Below are positions 394 to 39,334 of a stretch of DNA of 64,000 bases, piece after piece. The DNA comes from Candidatus Magasanikbacteria bacterium RIFCSPHIGHO2_01_FULL_41_23 (GTDB lineage Bacteria > Patescibacteriota > Patescibacteriia > Magasanikbacterales > UBA922), in the NCBI GenBank assembly GCA_001782805.1, contig MFPT01000002.1, forward strand, positions 133,401 through 197,400, given 5' to 3'. Position numbers and translations under genes: made by a program. The notes under the pieces were generated by a model. The model had not been told where the DNA came from and ran no database searches. It saw only the letters and a list, made by a program, of their open reading frames with translations. The first letter of the stretch is position 1. The number at the start of each line of letters is the position of its first letter.

Positions 394-1662
394 TTATCCC
401 ACAAATCCCTCATCCCGAAATTCAATCATTGCCTCCTCATCAAAATTCTTATCCAACATCGCGATAATACATTTTCCCAAATGGTACCCCAAATTTGGGG
501 GTACTGCATTACCGATTTGTTTATACTGTACCGATGTCGAGCCGGCAAATTTCCAATCGTCGGGAAAAGTTTGGATGCGAGCGTATTCTTGAACAGTCAA
601 CGGCCGAGTTTCTTCTGGGTGACATCGTTCAGTTTGTTTTTGCGCGGGCGCGCAGGTCAAAGTTAAACTCGGCTCATCCCAAGATAATCTTCGTGCCATT
701 CCAGTTTTTCCTCCACCCATAAAATAACTTGCCTTCATATATTCTTTTTGCAAATCTTCCGACAAATCACGCCAACAGCCACCCGGCGGAACTTTTTCCA
801 TTATTTCTTTTTTTCTTTTAGGATATTTTTGTCCTTCAGATTTTGGACAATCTTTAAAAGCTTCACGGAGTGAGACGGTGTAATCTTTTTCTTTGGGGAA
901 AAAGAAAGGAATATTTTTTAAATCACTACGGATACCAATAATTATCAATCTTTCTCTTTTTTGTGGCACATCATGATACTGTGAACGCGCTATTTTGTAA
1001 GCAACTCGATAACCTAACTCTTTCAAAATATTTACCATTATTTCCAGTGTTTTTCCATTTTCATGACGCAACAAACCTTTGACATTTTCCCCCATGATAA
1101 TTTTTGGCTGGACTTCTTTTATACAACGCGCGAATTCAAAAAAAAGTGTTCCGCGCGCATCTTCAAAACCTTTTTTATTACCGGCATAGCTAAATGCCTG
1201 ACACGGAAAACCACCTTCAACTACATCAACTTTACCTTTATATTTTTTAAAATCAATTTTAGCAATATCCTCGTGTACAATATTCCAATCTTTTCGATTT
1301 AATCTTAAAGTAGCAACAGAATTTTTATCAATCTCATTTAACAAAACATGATTGAGCCCAGCGTGATCCAGACCCAAAGCTGTTCCACCCGCGCCAGCAA
1401 ATAAATCAATAACTTTATATTTACTTTTTTGCCTAGTTTTCAAAATTTTATAATTATTTACGGTCGATGTGCCAAAAATTTTACTGTGCAACTTTTTTAA
1501 CTCTTCAATATTAAAAAGCCTATGGTTCAACGGCGAACGATGGGCTTTTATGACTCCCCTTTTATCCCAACGTCGAATCGTATCTGACGATACACCAATT
1601 ACTTCGGCGGCTTCTATGACAGTCAGCATCTGCTGAGTATTTTTGAATAAGGTAGTTTGCAT
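394..1662 (-). CDS. DNA (cytosine-5)-methyltransferase with an N-terminal MerR/excisionase-like HTH domain
   Basis: Motif I DLFAGAGG, motif IV GFPCQAFS, motif VI ENVKGL, QxRxR and the C-terminal GNAV are present; the N-terminal 45 aa (TVIEAAEVIGVSSDTIRRWDKRG) is a helix-turn-helix. Confidence 0.9.
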   Translation of the reverse strand: MQTTLFKNTQQMLTVIEAAEVIGVSSDTIRRWDKRGVIKAHRSPLNHRLFNIEELKKLHSKIFGTSTVNNYKILKTRQKSKYKVIDLFAGAGGTALGLDHAGLNHVLLNEIDKNSVATLRLNRKDWNIVHEDIAKIDFKKYKGKVDVVEGGFPCQAFSYAGNKKGFEDARGTLFFEFARCIKEVQPKIIMGENVKGLLRHENGKTLEIMVNILKELGYRVAYKIARSQYHDVPQKRERLIIIGIRSDLKNIPFFFPKEKDYTVSLREAFKDCPKSEGQKYPKRKKEIMEKVPPGGCWRDLSEDLQKEYMKASYFMGGGKTGMARRLSWDEPSLTLTCAPAQKQTERCHPEETRPLTVQEYARIQTFPDDWKFAGSTSVQYKQIGNAVPPNLGYHLGKCIIAMLDKNFDEEAMIEFRDEGFVG

Positions 1663-2135
1663 ATTGGTATAACTTCAACATAATAACCAACATAGCCTTT
1701 GTATTTGGTGCTTAATAGTTTTTTTAGATCATCATAAATAGCGACTTTGTGATTACCTTTTGTGGTATTGTGTTTATTTTTTACTTCAGCAATTATTTTT
1801 GCATCTTTGTTTACTAGATCTACAACATTCCCTACGCCCAAACTTTCCCAGCCAGTAAAGTGGCCTAAGATTTCTTGATGAAAACTACCCAAAGCATTCT
1901 GGATTGTTTTTTGTACCTGTCGAGCACTTTCTTTTTTCATCCATTCAGCTGACGATATACCGGTCGTCATTACTTCAAAGAGGGCGGAAAATGGATCAAC
2001 AACATTTTTATAAAAATCTTTTTCAGAATTATTTACCGCATTTCTTGCTACACCCAAAACAAATTCAACACCTGAATATAAATCTTGATTGATAATAAAA
2101 GGTAAAAGTTGCTTTTTTGGTATTTGATAATCCAT
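1623..2135 (-). CDS. putative type II restriction endonuclease (PD-(D/E)xK) partnered with the m5C methyltransferase
   Basis: 170-aa ORF whose 3' end overlaps the methyltransferase start by 40 nt; the D...EVK signature (VVDLVNKDAKIIAEVKNK) fits PD-(D/E)xK; no Vsr CFWHGH motif. Confidence 0.55.
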   Translation of the reverse strand: MDYQIPKKQLLPFIINQDLYSGVEFVLGVARNAVNNSEKDFYKNVVDPFSALFEVMTTGISSAEWMKKESARQVQKTIQNALGSFHQEILGHFTGWESLGVGNVVDLVNKDAKIIAEVKNKHNTTKGNHKVAIYDDLKKLLSTKYKGYVGYYVEVIPICKLPYSKILSRC

Positions 2136-6437: not shown

Positions 6438-6641
6438 TTAATAAAATAATCAAACCAAAATCAATCATTAAATTAAATTTAAAAAATACTGAATATTTAT
6501 TAGTATATATTGAGATACGATATTCGTAAACCTTTGAAAATTCCTCAAAACACAAATACTTTTTTATGTTTTTAGGAATTTGGCCAGAGAGGAAGCTGGC
6601 CAGAGGTGGGAGGAAGTGGCGAGGACAGAGGACAACGGCGG

Positions 6642-7091
6642 TTAGTCGGTGAAGCCGAAAAGCGAACGGCGGCGGAACTGTCCCTTCGCAGGGACACGCA
6701 CCAGACGACGCCAGTCAACATTGCCATCAAGGCAGAGCGCAGTGCCACTCCGCACCGAGCCAAGCCCGATGATCGGATCTCGCCGCTGTTCTTCGGGACA
6801 CTGGATCCCGATTGCCAGCGTGTGACTCGCCCGCATGAGCTTCTTTCCGGAGGTTTCTTCCCAGACCATGATTCCCTCGCTGGAGGGATCTTGGTCAAAC
6901 CTCACAAGATGAACATCCGCGGATTCGCGCAAGAACATCTGTTCGGGAGCAAACAAGCTCCCAATGTCAAACGTAACCTCGTTGTAGTTGCCGAGACGGA
7001 TCGCCTCGGCAATTCCCATCATGGTATAGGGCCGAAGACATATCGTCTTCACGACCGTACCAACCAGCGGCGCCATATTTGGCGATCGCAT
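6642..7091 (-). CDS. hypothetical protein in a GC-rich island; weak resemblance to the dCTP deaminase/dUTPase fold (RLGN motif)
   Basis: About 58% GC; the start codon is preceded by GGGAGGTGAT; AIRLGNYNEVTF resembles the Dcd VDVRLGN strand; otherwise unassigned. Confidence 0.4.
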   Translation of the reverse strand: MRSPNMAPLVGTVVKTICLRPYTMMGIAEAIRLGNYNEVTFDIGSLFAPEQMFLRESADVHLVRFDQDPSSEGIMVWEETSGKKLMRASHTLAIGIQCPEEQRRDPIIGLGSVRSGTALCLDGNVDWRRLVRVPAKGQFRRRSLFGFTD

Positions 7092-7252
7092 ATCACCTCC
7101 CAATGTACGAGTTTTTGTTGGTTGTTAAGTCAGAATTTCTCCCGACTGTTTTCTGCGCTTCATTACTTTAATAAAGAGAAAAAACAGTGGAGAAAAATAA
7201 AATATAGAAAAAACTGATTAAAAAAATTTATACCATAAAACTACGACGTTTG

Positions 7253-9325
7253 TCAAGACGTACGTGCCTTAAGTTCCCGAATCTCATCACGTAAAATCGT
7301 CGCTAATTCAAATTCCAAATCTTGCGCCGCCTGTTTCATTTGCGCTTCTTTATCCTTGATAATAACTTTTATCGGTCGCGCATCGCCAATAATATCCAAA
7401 TCAGTCACACCAACGCCCGCTGATTTTTTCTTAATTTTTTTACCTCGCTCTGAAACATTTTCCGCAGAAATTCCAAACTCCTCCAAAATATTGCGAATAC
7501 TTTTGGCAATGGTTTTGGGAGTTATATTATGTTTTTTATTGTACGCCAATTGTTTGTCACGCCGACGCGCGGTTTCGGCCAGCGCGCGCTCAATGGATCC
7601 GGTCAGATGATCGGCATACATCACGACCAAACCATTCACATTACGCGCGGCCCGGCCAATGGTTTGAATCAAACTCGTAACACTCCGCAAAAAACCTTCT
7701 TTATCCGCGTCCAAAATCGCGACAAAAGAAACTTCAGGAATATCCAAGCCTTCGCGCAATAAATTCACGCCCACAATCACATCAATCTCCCCACGACGTA
7801 ATTTAGTAATAATATCAATGCGATTAATCGTAAGTACATCACTGTGTAAATATTCCACTTTAATTTTTTTCTTCACTAAAAATTCCGTCAAATCCTCGGC
7901 CATTTTTTTGGTAAGTGTGGTTACGAGCGTTCGCTCTTTTTTTGCTATTCTTTCTTGAATTCGGAGTATAACGTCGTCTACTTGCGACAATGAATCTTTG
8001 CTCGCAGTGACTGGCCGAATTAAAACTTGCGGATCAACCAAACCAGTCGGACGCACAATTTGTTCCGCGATATTTTGCGCAGTAGTCAATTCATATTCCG
8101 CTGGCGTAGCCGAAACATAAATCACTTGTTCGGTGCGAGTGGCAAATTCTTCATATTTTAGTGGCCGATTGTCGCGTGCACTCGGTAAACGAAAACCATG
8201 TTCCACCAAAGTATCTTTGCGCGCTCTATCCCCATTATACATTCCGCGAATTTGCGAAACTGTAACATGTGATTCATCAATCACGGTTAAAAAATTATTT
8301 TTCCCTTCGCTTACTTTTTCCTTGTTTTCATTTTCCTTCCCACCCGCATATTTAAAATAATCCAATAATGTAAATGGTGGTTCATCGGCCACGCGTCCAT
8401 CAAAATGTCGTGAATAATTTTCAATCCCGTTGCAATAGCCGATATTTTTTATCATTTCCAAATCATATTTTACGCGCCGTTTTAATCTTTCATATTCCAA
8501 AACTTTTCCTTTTTTGGTAAAATTTTGCAATTGTTCTTCCAACTCTTGTTCAATATTCCCAAACGCGCGTTCGCGCATTTCCGGAGTGGCCACATAATGT
8601 TTGGCCGGAAATAACCAAATATCTTCTTGCGCGCGGATGATTTGTCGCGTCACCGCTTCCACTTTTTCAATTGCAATAATATGACTGCCGATTTCCAAGC
8701 GATAAATCACTTCTTCATTTACGGGCATCAGTTCCAAAACTTGTCCGCGCAACCGAAATGTTCCGCGCGTCAAATCCGTATTGGTGCGCGTAAACTGCAT
8801 GGCGATTAATTGTTGCAACACGGCCGTCCGATCAAGCTTATCACCCACGCGCAAATGCAAAACAATTTTTTCATATTCCGTAGGCGAACCCAAACCATAA
8901 ATCGCGGACACTGATGCCACAATAATTACATCGCGCCGCGTCAACAGAGCTTGTGTGCAAGCATGACGCAGACGATCAATTTCTTCATTAATCTGCGCTT
9001 CTTTTTCAATATACGTATCTGATCCGGGCATATATGCCTCGGGCTGATAATAATCATAATAACTGACAAAATATTCCACCGCGTTGTCGGGAAAAAACTC
9101 GCGAAATTCATTGCACAATTGCGCGGCCAAAGTTTTGTTGTGCGCGATTACCAGCGTGGGCAATTGTGTTTGCGCGATCACATTCGCGATCGTAAAGGTT
9201 TTTCCCGAGCCGGTCACGCCCAACAAAACTTGTTTACGTAAATTTTTTTCTATACCGGAAACTAAACTCGCAATCGCTTGCGGCTGGTCGCCGGCGGGTT
9301 TGTAGGATGAAACGAGTTTGAACAT
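7253..9325 (-). CDS. uvrB: excinuclease ABC subunit B
   Basis: 690 aa; helicase motifs GVTGSGKT and DESH; C-terminal UVR domain (ILRDEIRELKAR). Confidence 0.95.
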   Translation of the reverse strand: MFKLVSSYKPAGDQPQAIASLVSGIEKNLRKQVLLGVTGSGKTFTIANVIAQTQLPTLVIAHNKTLAAQLCNEFREFFPDNAVEYFVSYYDYYQPEAYMPGSDTYIEKEAQINEEIDRLRHACTQALLTRRDVIIVASVSAIYGLGSPTEYEKIVLHLRVGDKLDRTAVLQQLIAMQFTRTNTDLTRGTFRLRGQVLELMPVNEEVIYRLEIGSHIIAIEKVEAVTRQIIRAQEDIWLFPAKHYVATPEMRERAFGNIEQELEEQLQNFTKKGKVLEYERLKRRVKYDLEMIKNIGYCNGIENYSRHFDGRVADEPPFTLLDYFKYAGGKENENKEKVSEGKNNFLTVIDESHVTVSQIRGMYNGDRARKDTLVEHGFRLPSARDNRPLKYEEFATRTEQVIYVSATPAEYELTTAQNIAEQIVRPTGLVDPQVLIRPVTASKDSLSQVDDVILRIQERIAKKERTLVTTLTKKMAEDLTEFLVKKKIKVEYLHSDVLTINRIDIITKLRRGEIDVIVGVNLLREGLDIPEVSFVAILDADKEGFLRSVTSLIQTIGRAARNVNGLVVMYADHLTGSIERALAETARRRDKQLAYNKKHNITPKTIAKSIRNILEEFGISAENVSERGKKIKKKSAGVGVTDLDIIGDARPIKVIIKDKEAQMKQAAQDLEFELATILRDEIRELKARTS

Positions 9326-9444: not shown

Positions 9445-9520
9445 CAAAAACTTAAACTAAAAAAATAAATAAACTGAAGTGCCAAACTTAAATTTATGAC
9501 CTCGCCGCGGGACGGAACCC
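9445..9520. repeat. 76-bp perfect direct repeat, copy 1 (pairs with 12081-12157)
   Basis: Identical string aaaaacttaaactaaaaaaataaataaactgaagtgccaaacttaaatttatgacctcgccgcgggacggaaccc at both positions; weaker similarity continues about 50 bp further. Confidence 0.9.
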
Positions 9521-10552
9521 GACCCTCGAACGCGCCTCCACATCGCTCTTACTGAAGTGCAACCGCGAATCGCCCGTAAGGAAAAGCGCGCACGGCGCAG
9601 TACCATCGGAAAAGAGCCCGGAGGAAATAAAACGAGTGTATCCGGATTTATCCAGTGGAGTTAAATTTTGCGGAAGATGGCTGGGATTGTGTTTAGTATA
9701 CTGTTCCTGTACTTCTTGGGTATGAAGTGATTGAAGCGCCGCGTATTCAGTGGGTATAAGATCAGTATCATCATAAAGATCCGGTTTTTCTTTGTGTAAT
9801 TTTGTTAATTCTTCTTTCTGTTGATCATAATCCAGCAAGGTAGTGCCGGGATCAGGTTCAGTCGTTGGTTTTGTCCATACAATATACGGTCGATCAGGAA
9901 CAGAACGAAAGAAACTATTCGCGGGATCAGTAGTTGGATCAGTCATTTTTTCATTGTATTTGTTTGTATCAATAAAAGAATTTTCTACAACTTTAGGCTT
10001 TCCATTCTCTATCCACTCCGGTTTCAGATTTTTTAAGGATTCATCCCATTTTTTCATTTGGGCTTGCCTGCCGGGCATTACTATGGGAATCATACCTGCC
10101 AACATTCTTTTTTCTATTTTTTTCATTTCTTCCGGAGTAGAGACGGCTTCGATGAGCTGATCTTTGTTATTCTGGATGTCTGTTGTCCATTCACTCAAAT
10201 TTTGTTCAGTGTATCTGGCACAGTTTCTTTCAATTACCGTATCCAAATTAAAGATCATTTCTTTTTGTTCCGCACATTCTGGGTGATCGGCAGGGAGACC
10301 AGCCTCTTTTAATGCTTCGGCGTAGGGATTGAGGGCATGGTGAACCGTAATTTCCACGACTAACTCACGGGATAATTCAGCCATACCAGACTCGAGTTCA
10401 ATTTTGAGTTGTTTGGCTCGTTCCAAAGCATCTTTGGCTTCGGCGGGAGTGGTGGCTCCGGTCTGGGCTAGTTCCAGATACTTTAAAAATTCCTCTTTGA
10501 GGATATTAAGGGCATTGAGGCGAGTGTTTGCTTGGAGGCAGGAAAGAGGCAT
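9494..10552 (-). CDS. hypothetical protein (352 aa)
   Basis: Long ORF with a coiled-coil-like N-terminus and no recognisable catalytic motif; its stop codon lies inside repeat copy 1. Confidence 0.5.
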   Translation of the reverse strand: MPLSCLQANTRLNALNILKEEFLKYLELAQTGATTPAEAKDALERAKQLKIELESGMAELSRELVVEITVHHALNPYAEALKEAGLPADHPECAEQKEMIFNLDTVIERNCARYTEQNLSEWTTDIQNNKDQLIEAVSTPEEMKKIEKRMLAGMIPIVMPGRQAQMKKWDESLKNLKPEWIENGKPKVVENSFIDTNKYNEKMTDPTTDPANSFFRSVPDRPYIVWTKPTTEPDPGTTLLDYDQQKEELTKLHKEKPDLYDDTDLIPTEYAALQSLHTQEVQEQYTKHNPSHLPQNLTPLDKSGYTRFISSGLFSDGTAPCALFLTGDSRLHFSKSDVEARSRVGFRPAARS

Positions 10553-10559
10553 AAAGAAG

Positions 10560-11969
10560 CTAAATTAAAAACAAAAACACATAGTACGGAATAAAATAGA
10601 CAGTTTGGCCATTCACTTCTTTGCGGTTCATTTCATCTCGGGTTATCACCACACCGTATGTCAATTTTTTTTGTTTCATATAATCTGTCATAACCCGCAG
10701 ATCCTTCACATTGATGGTTCGAGAAAATTTAACCTCAATCGGCACTTGGGTATTTTTTTCCAGTACAATAAAATCAATTTCTTTTTGTCCTTGTCGCCAG
10801 AAACTCAGAGATTCGGTAATACCAGTCCCTTTATACTTTTGTTTCAGCACAATATACACACTATTTTCAATTATTTTTCCAAAGGCCTCCGGAACTTGAT
10901 CAAGATGATTTTCAGTATAGTGATTGAGAGCACAGGTAAAATTAACACACGGAGTATATAATTTTTTCAAAATCCGACCGCGTTTTATGAGGCTCTTATG
11001 ATACTTATACAAAATTTCAAACAAGTAACTTTCTTTTAAGTATTCAAAATATTTTTCAACGGTTTTTTTTGAAATCTCAATCTCTCTACCGATATTGGTT
11101 AATTCAAAAATAGAGCCAATATTATTAAGGAGGTGTCGTGTGATTAATTTAAACTCATCGGCCTTTTCAATATTAAAAATTCTAATGCAATCCAATTGAA
11201 TTTTTCCGATGACTGACTCCACAATATATTCGTGCCTTTGATCAGCGTTGGGTAATTTTCTAGTTTCGGGAAATTGTCCGGTCACCAAATATTCCCTACT
11301 CAGATCAGCGATTATTTTGCCATAGTAGGCATCGTATTGACTTAATGTGCTATAGTTATACGGAAGACTGAATACATCAAATGATAAAGTTGTCTCAACC
11401 TTTTCACCATTAATTCTTAAAAATTCACGGAATGATAGTGGCGGCAAATAGAAATCAAAAATACGGCCGGCCAAACTTTCCCGATTCTTACCTTTCAACA
11501 AGACACTTTGCGATCCGGTAATTATAAATTTAATTTTCTTGCCGGATAAATCGTAGTATCGTTTCAGAACTGATTGCCAATTATCGATGTATTGAATTTC
11601 GTCTAAAAAAATATATATCTGCTCTCCCTGTCCAAAAGAGAGGCTCGGATTATGTATGACATCCTTAAAATAAAGAGATAGGACTTCATCTAAAAATTCT
11701 GTTTTCTGGATTTGGCTGGCATAATCAAAGAGGAAATAAAAAATGTGAGTGGGTTTTGTTTTTTTGGCCAGTAGCTTGGCGATTAGTTGCTTAAGCAGAG
11801 TACTCTTGCCCACCCGTCGCAAACCAACAATGTTGAGTATGAGTGTATGCTCCAAATTATCCTCAAGAATGGAAAACAAATCTCTAGTGGGAAAATCTGA
11901 TTCTTCGATAATATGGCGGTCATTATTCCACCATGGATTTTTTAAATCCAATTCTTGCTTCGTGGGCAT
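10560..11969 (-). CDS. AAA+ ATPase, DUF4143 family (COG1373-like)
   Basis: Walker A GLRRVGKST, Walker B IFLDEIQ, long C-terminal DUF4143-like region. Confidence 0.75.
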   Translation of the reverse strand: MPTKQELDLKNPWWNNDRHIIEESDFPTRDLFSILEDNLEHTLILNIVGLRRVGKSTLLKQLIAKLLAKKTKPTHIFYFLFDYASQIQKTEFLDEVLSLYFKDVIHNPSLSFGQGEQIYIFLDEIQYIDNWQSVLKRYYDLSGKKIKFIITGSQSVLLKGKNRESLAGRIFDFYLPPLSFREFLRINGEKVETTLSFDVFSLPYNYSTLSQYDAYYGKIIADLSREYLVTGQFPETRKLPNADQRHEYIVESVIGKIQLDCIRIFNIEKADEFKLITRHLLNNIGSIFELTNIGREIEISKKTVEKYFEYLKESYLFEILYKYHKSLIKRGRILKKLYTPCVNFTCALNHYTENHLDQVPEAFGKIIENSVYIVLKQKYKGTGITESLSFWRQGQKEIDFIVLEKNTQVPIEVKFSRTINVKDLRVMTDYMKQKKLTYGVVITRDEMNRKEVNGQTVYFIPYYVFLFLI

Positions 11970-12080
11970 ATATGTGCTGTATGCTTAAAATATCAATTTA
12001 AGGATACCAGACTTATACTGTATTGTAAATAGCCAAAAAATGCTTTAATTTAGCTATTTTTACCAGATATTTTGAAAATA

Positions 12081-12157
12081 CAAAAAACTTAAACTAAAAA
12101 AATAAATAAACTGAAGTGCCAAACTTAAATTTATGACCTCGCCGCGGGACGGAACCC
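12081..12157. repeat. direct repeat, copy 2 (pairs with 9445-9520)
   Basis: Identical to copy 1 apart from one extra A in the leading A-run. Confidence 0.9.
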
Positions 12158-12420
12158 ATTCTTCGAATTCGCTTCCACATCGTACCCATCGAAGTTCAAC
12201 TGCGAGAAATATCTTTGGCAAAACTGGCGAGCAAGCGTTTGCGAGAATCAATGAATGACTGAACTTCTTGTTGGAAATCAGTTTGTTCCGGAGTTAACTC
12301 CGTGGATTTTTTCTTATCAGGTTTAGACGACGCAGATGGTTCAGGTGTTTCATTTTCATCTCCCGCAACCCGAAATACATCAGGCGCTAAACCACTGCGG
12401 AGTGACTCAAATTCTGACAT
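12131..12420 (-). pseudogene. frameshifted small paralog of the C-terminus of the 352-aa protein
   Basis: 74-aa ORF (12196-12420) ends ...FAKDISRS; in the -1 frame the sequence continues QLNFDGYDVEANSKNGFRPAARS, matching ...SRLHFSKSDVEARSRVGFRPAARS of the 352-aa protein. Confidence 0.35.
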
Positions 12421-12494: not shown

Positions 12495-13868
12495 CTATAT
12501 TTCCACCGTCTCCCCAAACTCCGGCACAAACGTCTCAATCTGATACATATCGCGCAAACGATGCGCCAATTCCGTGGCCGCGTGCGGCTCGCCATGCGTA
12601 CAAAAAACTTTTTTGGGAATTCCTGCTTGCCCTGAGCTTGTCGAATGGGCCGAACCAACCCACTCCACTAATTTTTTCTGATCCGCATGCGCGGACAAAC
12701 CACCGATCGCCTTAACCGTGCAACGCACGGCAATTTCCGCGCCATGAATTTTTACATGACTGGCACCTTCATATAATCGCCGTCCTAAAGTCCCTTGTGC
12801 CTGATATCCCACAATAATTAAGGTGGATTTGGGATCGGACAAATAGCGTTGCGCGTGATGCAAAATCCGGCCACCATTCATCATACCTGCGCCCGCGATC
12901 ACCATTTTGGACCCACGAACAGAATTGATTGTTTTTGATTCATCGCGCGTGCGTGTAATTTTCAATTGCGGAAAATTTAAAAAGTCATCGCCCAACATAA
13001 CTTCTTTGGCCGCTTCCGCATCGTAGTATTCGCGATGACGTTTAAACACTTCGGTCGCTTCAATCGCCAATGGGCTATCCAAAAAAACGGGAATCAGCGG
13101 CAAGCTATGTTCATGTTCTTGCAATTTGTGCAATTCAAATAAAAATTCTTGCGTCCGTTCAATGGAGAACGCCGGAACCATAATGGTTCCACCACGTTTG
13201 ACCGCTTCGGCAATTAAGCGCGCAATAATTTCCGTACGCGTTTCTTTATCTTCGTGCACACGATCGCCATAAGTTGATTCAATCACGAGTGCGTCCAGAG
13301 GCGATAAATTTTCCGTATCTTTTAAAATCGGAACATTCACATTCCCCACATCACCGGAAAACGCGATCCGTTTGCCTTCGGCCGAAATTTCAATAAAAGC
13401 CGCGCCGAAAATATGTCCGGAATCGCGAAAAATAGCATTAACTCCCCCATCCAAATCCACAACTTCGTGATAATTCACACCATGAAATAATGCCGCGGTT
13501 TTGATAACATCTTCTTGACTGTATAAAACCGGCTTATTGAATTTACGTTCATCGTACGACATCACGCTCCACGCATCGTCCATTACCAAACGCGCCAATT
13601 CCAATGTCCCTTCAGTTCCATAAATTTTCCCAGCAAAACCTTCTTTAACCAATTTGGGCAAACGGCCAACATGATCCAAATGCGCGTGCGTGACTAAAAC
13701 CGCGTCAATTTTCTGTGGATCAAACGGAAACGCGTCATGATTTTTTTTCTCATTAAAATCCGATCCCTGAAACATGCCGCAATCAACCAAAATTTTCTGA
13801 TTGCCGACTGAAAGCAAATAACATGATCCGGTCACTTCATGACTCGCGCCGCAAAATTTTATTTCCAT
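12495..13868 (-). CDS. beta-CASP family metallo-beta-lactamase-fold ribonuclease (RNase J/CPSF-like)
   Basis: HAHLDH metal-binding motif, MBL fold followed by a beta-CASP region, 457 aa. Confidence 0.75.
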   Translation of the reverse strand: MEIKFCGASHEVTGSCYLLSVGNQKILVDCGMFQGSDFNEKKNHDAFPFDPQKIDAVLVTHAHLDHVGRLPKLVKEGFAGKIYGTEGTLELARLVMDDAWSVMSYDERKFNKPVLYSQEDVIKTAALFHGVNYHEVVDLDGGVNAIFRDSGHIFGAAFIEISAEGKRIAFSGDVGNVNVPILKDTENLSPLDALVIESTYGDRVHEDKETRTEIIARLIAEAVKRGGTIMVPAFSIERTQEFLFELHKLQEHEHSLPLIPVFLDSPLAIEATEVFKRHREYYDAEAAKEVMLGDDFLNFPQLKITRTRDESKTINSVRGSKMVIAGAGMMNGGRILHHAQRYLSDPKSTLIIVGYQAQGTLGRRLYEGASHVKIHGAEIAVRCTVKAIGGLSAHADQKKLVEWVGSAHSTSSGQAGIPKKVFCTHGEPHAATELAHRLRDMYQIETFVPEFGETVEI

Positions 13869-17182: not shown

Positions 17183-17330
17183 GGTTCCCTGCAAATCTTT
17201 TTCTGAGACCCTCACCCATTCGACTAACGCTCACTTCGTGGTGACCTCAGTGGAACCAGGGTATCGGGCTCAAAAAAGCTTTAGGAGTTTATCCCGACTT
17301 TTGTCGGGAGTCCACCTTAATTTTTTTGAA
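17183..17330 (+). repeat. intergenic hairpin/terminator repeat element, copy A
   Basis: ctgcaaatctttttctgag...ctcaaaaaagctttaggagtttatcccgacttttgtcggga plus a T-run; conserved arms shared with 32022-32121 and 35352-35400. Confidence 0.7.
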
Positions 17331-32021: not shown

Positions 32022-32121
32022 AAATTCACTGCAAATCTTTTTCTGAGATCCGCCCGACCGGGACGGACTCAAAAAAGCTTTAGGAGTTTATCCCGACTTG
32101 TCGGGGTTCCATTTTTATTTT
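32022..32121 (+). repeat. intergenic hairpin/terminator repeat element, copy B
   Basis: aaaataaaaattcactgcaaatcttttt + 65-nt insert + cttgtcggggttccatttttattttt; same arms as copies A and C. Confidence 0.7.
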
Positions 32122-32138
32122 TAACAATTATTTAAAAT

Positions 32139-38182: not shown

Positions 38183-39334
38183 TTATCTTTCAATAAAATG
38201 ACGCACAATACTTTCAATAGTAATACATTCAAAATGAGCATTTGGATAGACGGTTTTGAATGAAATCGGCGCGTTAGCCATTTCCTTCCATTTGCATTCA
38301 TAAGCAAAAATATCTTTACCTCCACTCAATGATTCAACAAAATCCACTTCACCTCCCTGTCTATTCCTCCAAAAATGTATATCACTTGAACGCTGACTAT
38401 AAGCGCGCTCCTTTATTTTTTCAGCAATAAAAAAATTCTCAAATATCGCGCCCTTATCCGGTCGAATATCTATCGAATCAGTATTGCCGATGAGTGCGTT
38501 TCTTATCCCGACATCATAAAAATATATTTTGTGACTCTTATTAATCTCTTTTGTTTTATTGGTATAAAGCGGTGTCAAACGAAAAATAATAAAAGCCTGT
38601 TCAAGCAGATTTATATAATTATAGATAGTATCTCTACTCACGCCGACTTCTTTCGCCAGCTCTGTATACGAAGCCTCGCTTCCAATACGCAAAGCAAGAA
38701 GTTTTACCAGTTTTTCAAAAGCAAACGAGTTGCGTATATCTCCAAATAAAAATAAATCTTTGAACAGATAATCGCCGGCTAGCTCTTTTATAAGTATCGC
38801 CTTTTCTTCTCTGGAATTGGCGTTAACAATTCCTGGATACAAACCGAATGTCAGATAGGAATCAAGTTCCTTGTCTATATTTATCTTCCCATATGCGTCA
38901 ACAAGCTCTTTAATTGATAATGGATATAAATAAAATTTACGATTTCTTCCAGTCAATGGCTCATTTAATTTATTGGCTAATTCAAATGAAGATGATCCGC
39001 TAGCAATAACTCGTGCATCTTCCACATTGTCCGCTATCAGTTTAAGCGTAGTGCCAATATCTTTTACTCTTTGTGCTTCGTCAATTACTACTAATTCATA
39101 GCCGGACACGAGCGAAGCCAGTTCTTTGGCGGATTTATGTTCAAGTAAAAGGGCTTCTTTAGGATCGTCTCCCTGTAAATACAAGGTATTGGAAAACTTG
39201 GCCATGATAGACTTTATCAAAGTAGTTTTGCCAACCTGTCGCGCACCATAAAGCACCAAAATTGGTTTTTTACCTATATTGTCATAGATTTGATCAAAAA
39301 TTGTTCTTATATAATTCATAGGTATAATATACAA
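38183..39334 (-). CDS. AAA+ ATPase, DUF4143 family (second paralog)
   Basis: Walker A GARQVGKTT, Walker B VVIDEAQ; same architecture as 10560-11969. Confidence 0.75.
   Translation of the reverse strand: MYIIPMNYIRTIFDQIYDNIGKKPILVLYGARQVGKTTLIKSIMAKFSNTLYLQGDDPKEALLLEHKSAKELASLVSGYELVVIDEAQRVKDIGTTLKLIADNVEDARVIASGSSSFELANKLNEPLTGRNRKFYLYPLSIKELVDAYGKINIDKELDSYLTFGLYPGIVNANSREEKAILIKELAGDYLFKDLFLFGDIRNSFAFEKLVKLLALRIGSEASYTELAKEVGVSRDTIYNYINLLEQAFIIFRLTPLYTNKTKEINKSHKIYFYDVGIRNALIGNTDSIDIRPDKGAIFENFFIAEKIKERAYSQRSSDIHFWRNRQGGEVDFVESLSGGKDIFAYECKWKEMANAPISFKTVYPNAHFECITIESIVRHFIER

What the first reader, a model, noticed from the sequence alone, without database searches (positions are those of the whole stretch)
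9445..12210. 2.7-kb cassette (352-aa hypothetical + DUF4143 AAA+ ATPase) bounded by 76-bp perfect direct repeats
The 76-bp string starting aaaaacttaaactaaaaaaataaataaactgaagtgcc occurs at 9445-9520 and 12081-12157, with weaker similarity running about 50 bp further. Each copy spans the stop codon and terminator-like 3' flank of a minus-strand ORF; the two ORF C-termini are homologous (...SDVEARSRVGFRPAARS versus ...YDVEANSKNGFRPAARS). Two readings are possible: (a) insertion of a two-gene cassette into the 3' end of a gene with duplication of the target, or (b) segmental duplication followed by decay of one copy. ATPase-plus-unknown-partner pairs of this kind are a recurring form of defence or mobile modules.
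Basis: seen in the sequence. Interest (0 to 1): 0.6.

Follow-up and report, generated by a model that had tools for sequence, protein, structure and literature searches.

The report
Gene stub beside a defence-type ATPase
The two "boundary repeats" are the conserved 3' end of one gene family present twice, once on an intact 352-aa gene and once as a 25-codon stub of a lost sister gene; a recent recombination event made 75 bp identical, so this is a recombination scar in a small variable gene island, not the footprint of a mobile two-gene cassette.

Summary
The repeat is real. An exact 75-bp block (9446-9520 = 12083-12157) extends to 123 nt at 88% identity. It is the longest exact direct repeat in the window and is identical in at least 7 independent assemblies.

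Copy A is the last 25 codons plus 48 nt of 3' flank of the 352-aa gene ("X"). X belongs to an uncharacterised Patescibacteria (CPR) family that always ends in GFRPAARS/T. Copy B is a start-less stub of a second X-family gene.

Outside the exact block, the stub is as far from copy A (69%) as X in another genome is (67%). Inside it, identity is 100%, against 83% to that genome. This mosaic fits gene conversion or a crossover within a conserved "tail element", not decay of a duplication or a target-site duplication.

Relatives carry tandem X-X genes, and X genes flanked by other DUF4143 ATPases.

The ATPase is a PADLOC PDC-S01 candidate defence gene. It has low GC. Homologues at 55-73% identity occur across CPR in unrelated contexts, without X and without flanking repeats. 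The pair is therefore not a conserved cassette.

No recombinase, tRNA or Rfam family is present at the locus. I could not run an empty-site test because no close relative is available.

Interest is modest. By-products are a conserved 3' tail element and a confident X model with no PDB match.

The parts
9446..9520 (-). Copy A, exact 75-bp block. It holds the last 8 codons (GFRPAARS) and stop of X plus 48 nt of 3' flank: the 'tail element'.
9521..9568 (-). Copy A, diverged part: 16 further codons of X. It is 69% identical to copy B.
9494..10552 (-). X: intact 352-aa gene of an uncharacterised CPR family. It has an N-terminal helical hairpin module and a core domain ending in GFRPAARS.
10560..11969 (-). 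AAA_14 + DUF4143 (PD-(D/E)xK) ATPase, a PADLOC PDC-S01 candidate defence gene. GC is 0.35 against 0.411 for the window.
11970..12040 (-). ATPase upstream region, including a promoter-like site (12029->12001). It is still alignable to the ATPase locus L014, so it belongs to the ATPase unit.
12083..12157 (-). Copy B, exact 75-bp block (tail element).
12131..12205 (-). Relic of a second X-family gene: its last 24 codons plus stop, with no start and stop codons upstream in frame. It matches X profile positions 315-341.
12196..12420 (-). Orphan 74-aa ORF. Its last codons and TGA stop lie inside the relic in another frame. It has no homologue outside this genome and is probably a by-product of the deletion that removed the body of the second X gene.
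7253..9325 (-). UvrB, the housekeeping flank downstream of copy A. A promoter-like site lies at 9404->9376.
12495..13868 (-). Beta-CASP metallo-beta-lactamase RNase, the housekeeping flank upstream of the island.

Best explanation
The locus between the beta-CASP RNase gene and uvrB is a small variable island that once held two X-family genes in series, X_B then X_A, read on the minus strand. The body of X_B has been deleted. What remains is its last 24 codons, its stop and its 48-nt 3' flank (copy B); the deletion also created the orphan 74-aa ORF that runs into the stub. A PDC-S01-type AAA_14/DUF4143 ATPase gene with its own promoter lies in the former X_B-X_A spacer and was acquired separately. 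X genes of this subclade carry a 'tail element' conserved at nucleotide level: the last 27 coding nt plus about 25-48 nt after the stop, with an invariant TTTAAGTTTG. Because this was the only stretch of X_B and X_A similar enough for homologous recombination, a recent gene conversion or crossover made exactly that stretch identical (75 bp). The neighbouring 48 nt kept their old divergence. Shown: copy B is an X-family relic; the identity pattern is mosaic; the tail element is conserved in three genomes; tandem X-X and X-ATPase arrangements exist in relatives; the ATPase is an independent unit. Inferred: the order of events (paralogue array, ATPase insertion, deletion, conversion) and that the mechanism was RecA-type homologous recombination. 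As it stands, the 75-bp repeat would allow loss of ATPase plus X by recombination, but nothing shows that this happens.
For: Copy B matches the last 27 positions of the X-family profile, and it is the only other hit in the six-frame window (E = 3e-4). It has no start, with in-frame stops upstream. All 12 close family members, and fusion proteins such as P0136, end in GFRPAARS/T. Block identities: in the inner 48 columns A-B is 69%, A-L011 67% and B-L011 73%; in the 75-column core A-B is 100% and A-L011 83%. All 15 mismatches fall in one end (P = 1.6e-7), and 75/75 identity at 83% per site has P = 8.5e-7. The tail element is conserved after the stop in the window, L011 and both genes of L020. 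L020 carries tandem X1-X2 with a 56-nt spacer made of the tail element. In L011, X is flanked on both sides by DUF4143/AAA_14 genes of two different PDC-S01 subtypes. The ATPase has GC 0.35 against 0.411 for the window and 0.439 for X. Its homologues across CPR sit in unrelated contexts without flanking repeats. DNA homology to them covers only window ~12040-10561. The 74-aa ORF is an orphan whose stop lies in the relic. No recombinase, tRNA or Rfam family is present.
Against: No close relative genome could be found, so the ancestral state (X_B intact, or an empty site) was not observed. Gene conversion cannot be told apart from a single crossover that integrated or rearranged DNA at the tail element. 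The B-L011 versus A-B difference (73% against 69% over 48 nt) is not significant, so the age of the X_A/X_B split is only roughly bounded. The ATPase-X gap is 7 nt here and 8 nt in L011, which could mean a selected operon rather than a chance insertion. The inference that the ATPase is foreign rests on composition and scattered distribution only.
Confidence: 0.6

Rival explanations
1. Campbell-type insertion of a circular ATPase+X segment. A 2.6-kb circle carrying the tail element, the ATPase and the X body (for example, looped out of an X-ATPase-X array in a related cell) integrated by a single homologous crossover into the tail element of a resident X gene or stub. This produced the two identical blocks as recombination joints. 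The pair would then be a homology-driven mobile cassette.
For: The identical block sits exactly where the family-wide nucleotide conservation lies, with abrupt loss of identity on the inner side. That is what a crossover between diverged partners gives. The 2637-bp unit is bounded by direct repeats long enough for RecA. L011 shows the X-tail -> ATPase and ATPase -> X junctions, as in a repeating array.
Against: X and the ATPase differ in composition (0.439 against 0.35), which argues against joint recent arrival. The ATPase subfamily is found without X in the three homologue contexts examined. Its DNA homology ends at its stop codon. The L011 flanking ATPases are two different subtypes, so that contig is not a circle of one unit. 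X is absent from phage, plasmid and viral collections. A resident stub or gene plus a later deletion is still needed, so this costs more steps than conversion in situ.
Confidence: 0.2
2. The duplicated tail element is kept twice because it works as a cis element, such as a transcription stop, a 3'-end signal or a protein-binding site. Copy B would terminate the beta-CASP/74-aa transcript ahead of the ATPase promoter, and its identity to copy A would be maintained by selection. This is compatible with the best explanation for its origin.
For: The post-stop 25-48 nt are conserved among X genes whose proteins are only 43-59% identical. The deletion spared precisely this element. In every family member read, the Arg of GFRP is the codon CGT and the tail is conserved at synonymous sites.
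Against: No intrinsic terminator is predicted in it. The RNAalifold structure is weak (-8.3 kcal/mol) with no covariation support. Selection alone does not explain 100% identity when the same element differs by 17% between genomes. There is no Rfam match.
Confidence: 0.12
3. A site-specific integrative element or transposon: the repeats are attL/attR or a target-site duplication made by a recombinase.
For: Direct repeats overlap the 3' end of a gene, as with islands that target gene 3' ends.
Against: No integrase, transposase or terminal inverted repeats lie in or near the segment. There is no tRNA or tmRNA. Similarity continues beyond the identical core as diverged coding sequence of the same family. 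A 75-123-nt target duplication is unknown for transposons.
Confidence: 0.03
4. Assembly artefact that collapsed or chimerised two loci.
For: Short contigs break at the repeat: L005 and L007 end inside the copies.
Against: Four independent contigs from different samples and assemblers span both copies at 100% identity, some built with k=141, longer than the repeat. The breaks in the short contigs are what a 75-bp repeat does to a k=31 graph.
Confidence: 0.01

Closest known systems
PDC-S01 (PADLOC 'phage defence candidate', single gene; COG1373-type AAA_14 ATPase fused to the DUF4143 PD-(D/E)xK domain)
   Same: The 469-aa protein has AAA_14 + DUF4143 and matches six PDC-S01 models, the best at 3.5e-61 over its full length. 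Like the family in general it is scattered, multi-copy (a second copy lies at 38183-39334) and sits in variable contexts. The family is described as an ATPase fused to a PD-(D/E)xK domain, found by 'guilt by embedding' and not yet validated (PMC12988326; PMC3424549).
   Different: Nothing here tests antiviral activity. PDC-S01 is defined as a single-gene candidate, whereas here and in L011 it abuts an X-family gene with a 7-8-nt gap.
Pseudogene stub of a tandem paralogue, with gene conversion (concerted evolution) between paralogue ends
   Same: There is a start-less 3' fragment of a family member next to an intact member. Tandem members exist in a relative. A sharply bounded identical tract is set in otherwise diverged sequence.
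   Different: An unrelated gene (the ATPase) lies between the two partners. The converted tract coincides with a conserved element that runs past the stop codon.
Genomic islands that integrate into the 3' end of a gene and restore it (attL/attR direct repeats)
   Same: Direct repeats overlap a gene's 3' end and bracket accessory genes.
   Different: There is no integrase. The upstream copy is not attached to a gene body. The similarity beyond the core is homologous coding sequence rather than an element/chromosome junction.
AAA_5 (MoxR/McrB-like) ATPase proteins with a C-terminal X domain (e.g. P0136, 1046 aa)
   Same: The X core domain (profile positions ~57-341, ending GFRPAARS) is fused to a P-loop ATPase in at least ten cluster representatives. 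An ATPase-X link is therefore seen in another form.
   Different: It is a different ATPase class (AAA_5, not AAA_14/DUF4143), fused rather than adjacent, and has no defence-family match.

Membership tests
PDC-S01 candidate defence ATPase (PADLOC) | Match to PADLOC PDC-S01 profile(s) over the full length | tested here: met
   PDLC04787, E = 3.5e-61, residues 29-466 against profile 13-406/412; five further PDC-S01 models also hit
PDC-S01 candidate defence ATPase (PADLOC) | Architecture: P-loop AAA_14 ATPase plus C-terminal DUF4143 (PD-(D/E)xK) | tested here: met
   AAA_14 1.9e-34 (residues 44-184) and DUF4143 4e-24 (residues 260-415)
PDC-S01 candidate defence ATPase (PADLOC) | Protects against phage | not testable with these tools
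Site-specific integrative element (att-bounded island) | Encodes or is adjacent to an integrase/recombinase | tested here: not met
   Pfam on all ORFs between 5249 and 14647 finds none
Site-specific integrative element (att-bounded island) | Identical att core with unrelated sequence beyond it on the element side | tested here: not met
   Beyond the 75-bp core, 48 nt continue at 69% identity as homologous X-family coding sequence
Site-specific integrative element (att-bounded island) | Empty site with a single att copy in related genomes, or a circular junction | not testable with these tools
   No close relative was found: pattern scan 0 hits; genome and metagenome scans found only distant X loci; the 90% clusters of UvrB and beta-CASP hold no other long contig. 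No read data are available.
Transposon / IS with target-site duplication | Transposase, terminal inverted repeats and a short uniform target-site duplication | tested here: not met
   No transposase. No inverted repeats at the segment ends. The repeat is 75-123 nt with non-uniform identity.
Integron cassette array (attC) | IntI integrase and attC sites with imperfect internal dyad symmetry between cassettes | tested here: not met
   No integrase. No inverted repeat within the element. The predicted fold is weak. Only two copies exist in 64 kb.
Paralogue relic homogenised by gene conversion or crossover | The fragment is homologous to the family of the neighbouring intact gene | tested here: met
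   X profile against the six-frame window: only X and 12134-12247 are hit (E = 3e-4, profile positions 315-341)
Paralogue relic homogenised by gene conversion or crossover | The family occurs as several or tandem copies in genomes | tested here: met
   Tandem X1-X2 in L020. P0004, P0007 and P0008 all lie in GCA_023246395.1.
Paralogue relic homogenised by gene conversion or crossover | Mosaic identity: an identical tract set in sequence as diverged as an orthologue | tested here: met
   Core: A-B 100% against A-L011 83%. Inner block: A-B 69% against A-L011 67%. P = 1.6e-7 and 8.5e-7.
Paralogue relic homogenised by gene conversion or crossover | Distinguishing conversion from reciprocal crossover, and the order of events | not testable with these tools
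   This needs outgroup genomes of the same lineage
Structured RNA gene / tRNA-like integration target | Match to tRNA/tmRNA or an Rfam family, or covariation-supported structure | tested here: not met
   ARAGORN and Rfam find nothing in either copy. RNAalifold covariation term +0.32.

The most novel reading that the evidence does not exclude
X-family genes and PDC-S01-type ATPases form a functional two-part system in Patescibacteria, with X as an effector or sensor of an as yet unseen fold. The nucleotide-conserved tail element at the 3' end of X genes would act as a homology 'docking patch' through which ATPase and other defence genes are swapped in behind X genes by recombination. That would be a recombinase-free cassette-exchange mechanism, and the 75-bp identical repeat would be its fresh joint.
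Probability: 0.12. Interest if true: 0.65.

Novelty: new member of a known kind. Interest (0 to 1): 0.33.

Why it matters
As a repeat-bounded 'cassette' it does not matter much. It is a recombination scar of a kind expected in variable gene islands, and the ATPase is one more member of a very common, unvalidated defence candidate (PDC-S01).

It shows that perfect direct repeats around accessory genes need not mark a mobile element. Here the giveaway is the mosaic identity and the family membership of the stub.

Three by-products could be followed up.
- X is a CPR-restricted, multi-copy family (about 150 cluster representatives). Its predicted structure is very confident (pLDDT 95) and has no Foldseek match in the PDB or BFVD. 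It is repeatedly fused or adjacent to P-loop ATPases and sits beside SoFic, a DRT-like reverse transcriptase and PDC-S01 genes.
- X carries a 3' tail element conserved at nucleotide level across genomes, including synonymous sites and about 25-48 nt after the stop. Its role is unknown.
- PDC-S01 genes of different subtypes sit directly after this element in two genomes.

If X proved to be a partner of these ATPases, it would give a handle on the function of one of the most abundant candidate defence genes.

Tried and rejected
- **tRNA, tmRNA or structured RNA as integration target.** ARAGORN and Rfam (gathering and E <= 10) found nothing in either copy. RNAalifold on five tail elements gave a weak fold without covariation.
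- **Empty site or variant strains.** An exact 54-nt core search of the metagenome contigs gave 0 hits. Profile-guided scans of genome, metagenome and viral contigs gave only L018, L019 (the same contig as L011) and L020. The 90% clusters of UvrB and beta-CASP hold no other long contig. All seven contigs carrying X are the same sequence.
- **L011 as a small circle of one ATPase+X unit.** Rejected: its two ATPase fragments best match different PDC-S01 models.
- **Flanking repeats as a general property of this ATPase.** None was found around three homologues. Their downstream partner genes are unrelated to each other and to X.
- **X on phages or plasmids.** No tblastn match. The tail-element pattern is absent from viral contigs.
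- **74-aa ORF homologues.** None exist beyond this genome.
- **Antisense small ORF in the repeat.** Its ATG is absent in L020_X1, so I dropped it (read from the sequence).
- **PADLOC on the AAA_5-X fusion proteins.** Only marginal hits.
Full report
**Observation**

The window carries a direct repeat at 9446-9568 and 12083-12205 (123 nt, 88% identity, spacing 2637 nt). The exact block is 75 bp, 9446-9520 = 12083-12157. It is the longest exact direct repeat in the 64-kb window; the next longest is 32 nt. A 27-nt piece of it occurs exactly twice, against 0.00 expected in shuffles.

Mis-assembly is excluded. The same 4 kb is 100% identical in contigs from several independent samples and assemblers. 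Four of these span both copies, some built with k=141, which exceeds the repeat length. The shorter contigs that end inside the copies behave as a 75-bp repeat would make a k=31 graph behave.

**Anatomy**

Everything is on the minus strand, in this order:
- a beta-CASP metallo-beta-lactamase RNase (12495-13868);
- a 74-aa ORF (12196-12420);
- copy B (12205 to 12083);
- an AAA_14 + DUF4143 ATPase (10560-11969);
- after a 7-nt gap, the 352-aa gene "X" (9494-10552), whose last 25 codons plus 48 nt of 3' flank make up copy A;
- uvrB (7253-9325).

The window belongs to a Candidatus Magasanikbacteria genome from a Rifle aquifer metagenome (Patescibacteria/CPR).

**What the repeat is**

X has only 12 close homologues, and all end in GFRPAARS or GFRPASRT at the very C-terminus. 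A profile search finds 149 cluster representatives.

A profile of the family run against the six-frame translation of the window hits just two places: X itself and 12134-12247. The second matches the last 27 profile positions (E = 3e-4). That frame is open for only 39 codons, has no start, and has stops upstream. Copy B is therefore the 3' stub of a second X-family gene, not a duplicated target.

The 74-aa ORF ends in a TGA inside the stub in another frame and has no homologue outside this genome. It looks like a by-product of the deletion that removed the body of that second gene.

No tRNA, tmRNA or Rfam family overlaps either copy.

**A conserved tail element**

Three other X genes share the same DNA at their 3' ends: the closest homologue (P0002, contig L011, 59% protein identity) and the two genes on contig L020. 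The shared stretch is the last 27 coding nt plus about 25-48 nt after the stop, with an invariant TTTAAGTTTG.

More distant family members keep the coding part almost unchanged at nucleotide level: the Arg of GFRP is CGT in every member read. They lack the post-stop part.

I found no evidence for an intrinsic terminator or for a covariation-supported RNA fold. The role of this element is unexplained.

**Mosaic identity**

I compared the sequences block by block.

| Block | A-B | A-L011 | B-L011 |
|---|---|---|---|
| Inner 48 columns | 69% | 67% | 73% |
| 75-column core | 100% | 83% | 83% |

In the inner block the stub is as far from X as an X gene in a different genome is. In the core the two window copies are identical while each is only 83% identical to L011.

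All 15 mismatches of the 123-nt repeat fall in one 48-nt end (P = 1.6e-7). At 83% per-site identity, 75 of 75 matches has P = 8.5e-7.

Uniform decay of a duplication cannot give this pattern. Nor can a target-site duplication, which starts out identical over its whole length. A recent homologous exchange confined to the only stretch similar enough to recombine does give it. That exchange could be a gene conversion or a crossover.

**Is ATPase+X a cassette?**

The evidence says no.
- The ATPase matches the PADLOC candidate PDC-S01 (3.5e-61). PDC-S01 is a very common, unvalidated single-gene defence candidate, described as an ATPase fused to a PD-(D/E)xK domain (PMC12988326; DUF4143 is listed in the PD-(D/E)xK superfamily survey, PMC3424549).
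- It has more than 100 homologues at 55-73% identity in many CPR lineages.
- In the three contexts I examined it sits between unrelated genes, without X and without flanking repeats.
- DNA similarity to those loci covers window ~12040-10561, that is the ORF plus about 70 nt of upstream region, and stops at the ATPase stop codon.
- Its GC is 0.35, the second lowest 1.4-kb stretch in the window after the Eco47II restriction-modification genes. X has GC 0.439 and the window 0.411.
- Conversely, most X homologues have no ATPase neighbour.
- No recombinase or transposase lies between 5249 and 14647.

**What relatives show**

- L020 carries two X genes in tandem, separated by 56 nt that consist of the tail element.
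- One MAG (GCA_023246395.1) holds three X paralogues at different loci.
- In L011, X is flanked upstream by the C-terminus of a DUF4143 protein (8-nt gap) and downstream, after the tail element and a near-consensus promoter-like sequence, by the N-terminus of an AAA_14 protein.
- These two L011 fragments best match different PDC-S01 models (PDLC04790 and PDLC04789) and are only about 25% identical to the window ATPase. They are distinct genes, not a circle of one unit.

Arrays that mix X genes and PDC-S01 genes therefore exist. The junctions 'X tail element then ATPase' and 'ATPase then X' have arisen with different ATPases.

**Best explanation (confidence about 0.6)**

1. An X_B-X_A paralogue pair sat upstream of uvrB.
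2. A PDC-S01 gene with its own promoter was acquired into the short spacer between them.
3. A deletion removed the body of X_B, leaving the 24-codon stub plus its tail element and creating the orphan ORF.
4. A recent gene conversion or crossover homogenised the tail element to 75 identical bp.

The identity of the stub, the mosaic, the conserved element, the arrangements in relatives and the independence of the ATPase are all shown. The order of events and the RecA-type mechanism are inferred.

**Rival explanations**

The main rival (about 0.2) is that a circular ATPase+X segment integrated by a single crossover in the tail element. This would make the pair a homology-driven mobile unit. The different composition of the two genes, the X-free distribution of the ATPase and the extra steps needed weigh against it. 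Only read-level or outgroup data could exclude it.

Selection on the tail element as a cis signal (about 0.12) may add to the picture, but it does not explain 100% identity.

Site-specific integration or transposition (0.03) and an assembly artefact (0.01) are effectively refuted.

**By-products**

- With a 45-sequence alignment, AlphaFold2 gives X a very confident model (pLDDT 94.9, pTM 0.87). It has no Foldseek match at E <= 0.001 in the PDB or BFVD beyond the N-terminal helical hairpin, and no sequence match in the PDB, Pfam, NCBIfam or PADLOC.
- The X core domain is fused to AAA_5 ATPases in about ten ~1000-aa representatives.
- X genes elsewhere sit next to a SoFic homologue (L018, 5e-45), next to a DRT-like reverse transcriptase (L020), and near RhuM and a methyltransferase (L010).

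These points suggest that X lives in defence-type variable regions and may work with P-loop ATPases. With so few independent contexts this is a lead, not a result.

**Limits**

**Verdict**

The 'mobile two-gene cassette with target duplication' reading is not supported. The 'duplication and decay' reading is closer but needs a recent recombination event. The feature is an ordinary kind of genome scar in a small variable island that holds a new member of a known candidate defence family. Interest is 0.33.

Noticed in passing
window 9494-10552 (X) and alignment A5: The X family gives a very confident AlphaFold2 model (pLDDT 94.9, pTM 0.87) with no Foldseek match at E <= 0.001 in the PDB or BFVD, and no Pfam, NCBIfam or PDB sequence hit. 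It may be an undescribed fold, restricted to CPR with about 150 cluster representatives.
   Followed up: partly
window 9494-9520 and 12131-12157; L008-L011, L018, L020, L021 gene ends: The last 8 codons of X genes (GFRPAARS) are conserved at synonymous sites across members that are only 35-60% identical. Arg is always CGT, Phe almost always TTC and Pro CCT/CCC. This hints at a nucleotide-level constraint. The post-stop TTTAAGTTTG... part is confined to one subclade.
   Followed up: partly
L011 1-411 and 1596-1844: The closest X homologue is flanked on both sides by PDC-S01-type ATPase genes of two different subtypes. One follows the tail element and a near-consensus TTGACA-17-TATAAT promoter-like sequence.
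   Followed up: yes
L018 9039-10103; L020 1616-2257 (minus strand); L010 1144-3020: Other X-family genes lie next to a SoFic homologue (5e-45), a DRT-like reverse transcriptase (best hits RT_UG17 and RT_UG4), and RhuM plus a methyltransferase. These are defence-type neighbourhoods.
   Followed up: partly
proteins P0136, P0145, P0153, P0165 (no window coordinates): The X core domain occurs at the C-terminus of ~930-1056-aa proteins that have an AAA_5 (MoxR/McrB-like) ATPase domain. The N-terminal 58-aa helical module of X is shared with other CPR proteins, such as WG-repeat proteins.
   Followed up: partly
window 38183-39334 (minus strand): A second PDC-S01-type AAA_14 + DUF4143 ATPase (383 aa; PDLC04789, 8e-131) of a different subtype from the one in the finding.
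   Followed up: partly
window 6572-7103: A 58% GC stretch in a 41% GC genome, open in several frames. A 149/153-aa gene is called on the minus strand. It has no Pfam hit and no Rfam match. It is possibly foreign DNA.
   Followed up: partly
window 17186-17330 and 32026-32130: A second intergenic repeat family, with 32-nt and 20-nt exact blocks. It contains a CCCGAC(TT)TTGTCGGG hairpin followed by a T-run (terminator-like) and has a 38-nt indel between the copies.
   Followed up: no
window 394-2135: An Eco47II-type restriction endonuclease plus a C5 cytosine methylase with a MerR/HTH N-terminus. This is the lowest-GC stretch of the window (0.333), next to uvrA.
   Followed up: no
L005 1-206 (joins window at 12656): One short scaffold from another data set carries 206 nt unrelated to the window before joining inside the beta-CASP gene. 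It is either a chimeric scaffold or a strain rearrangement.
   Followed up: partly
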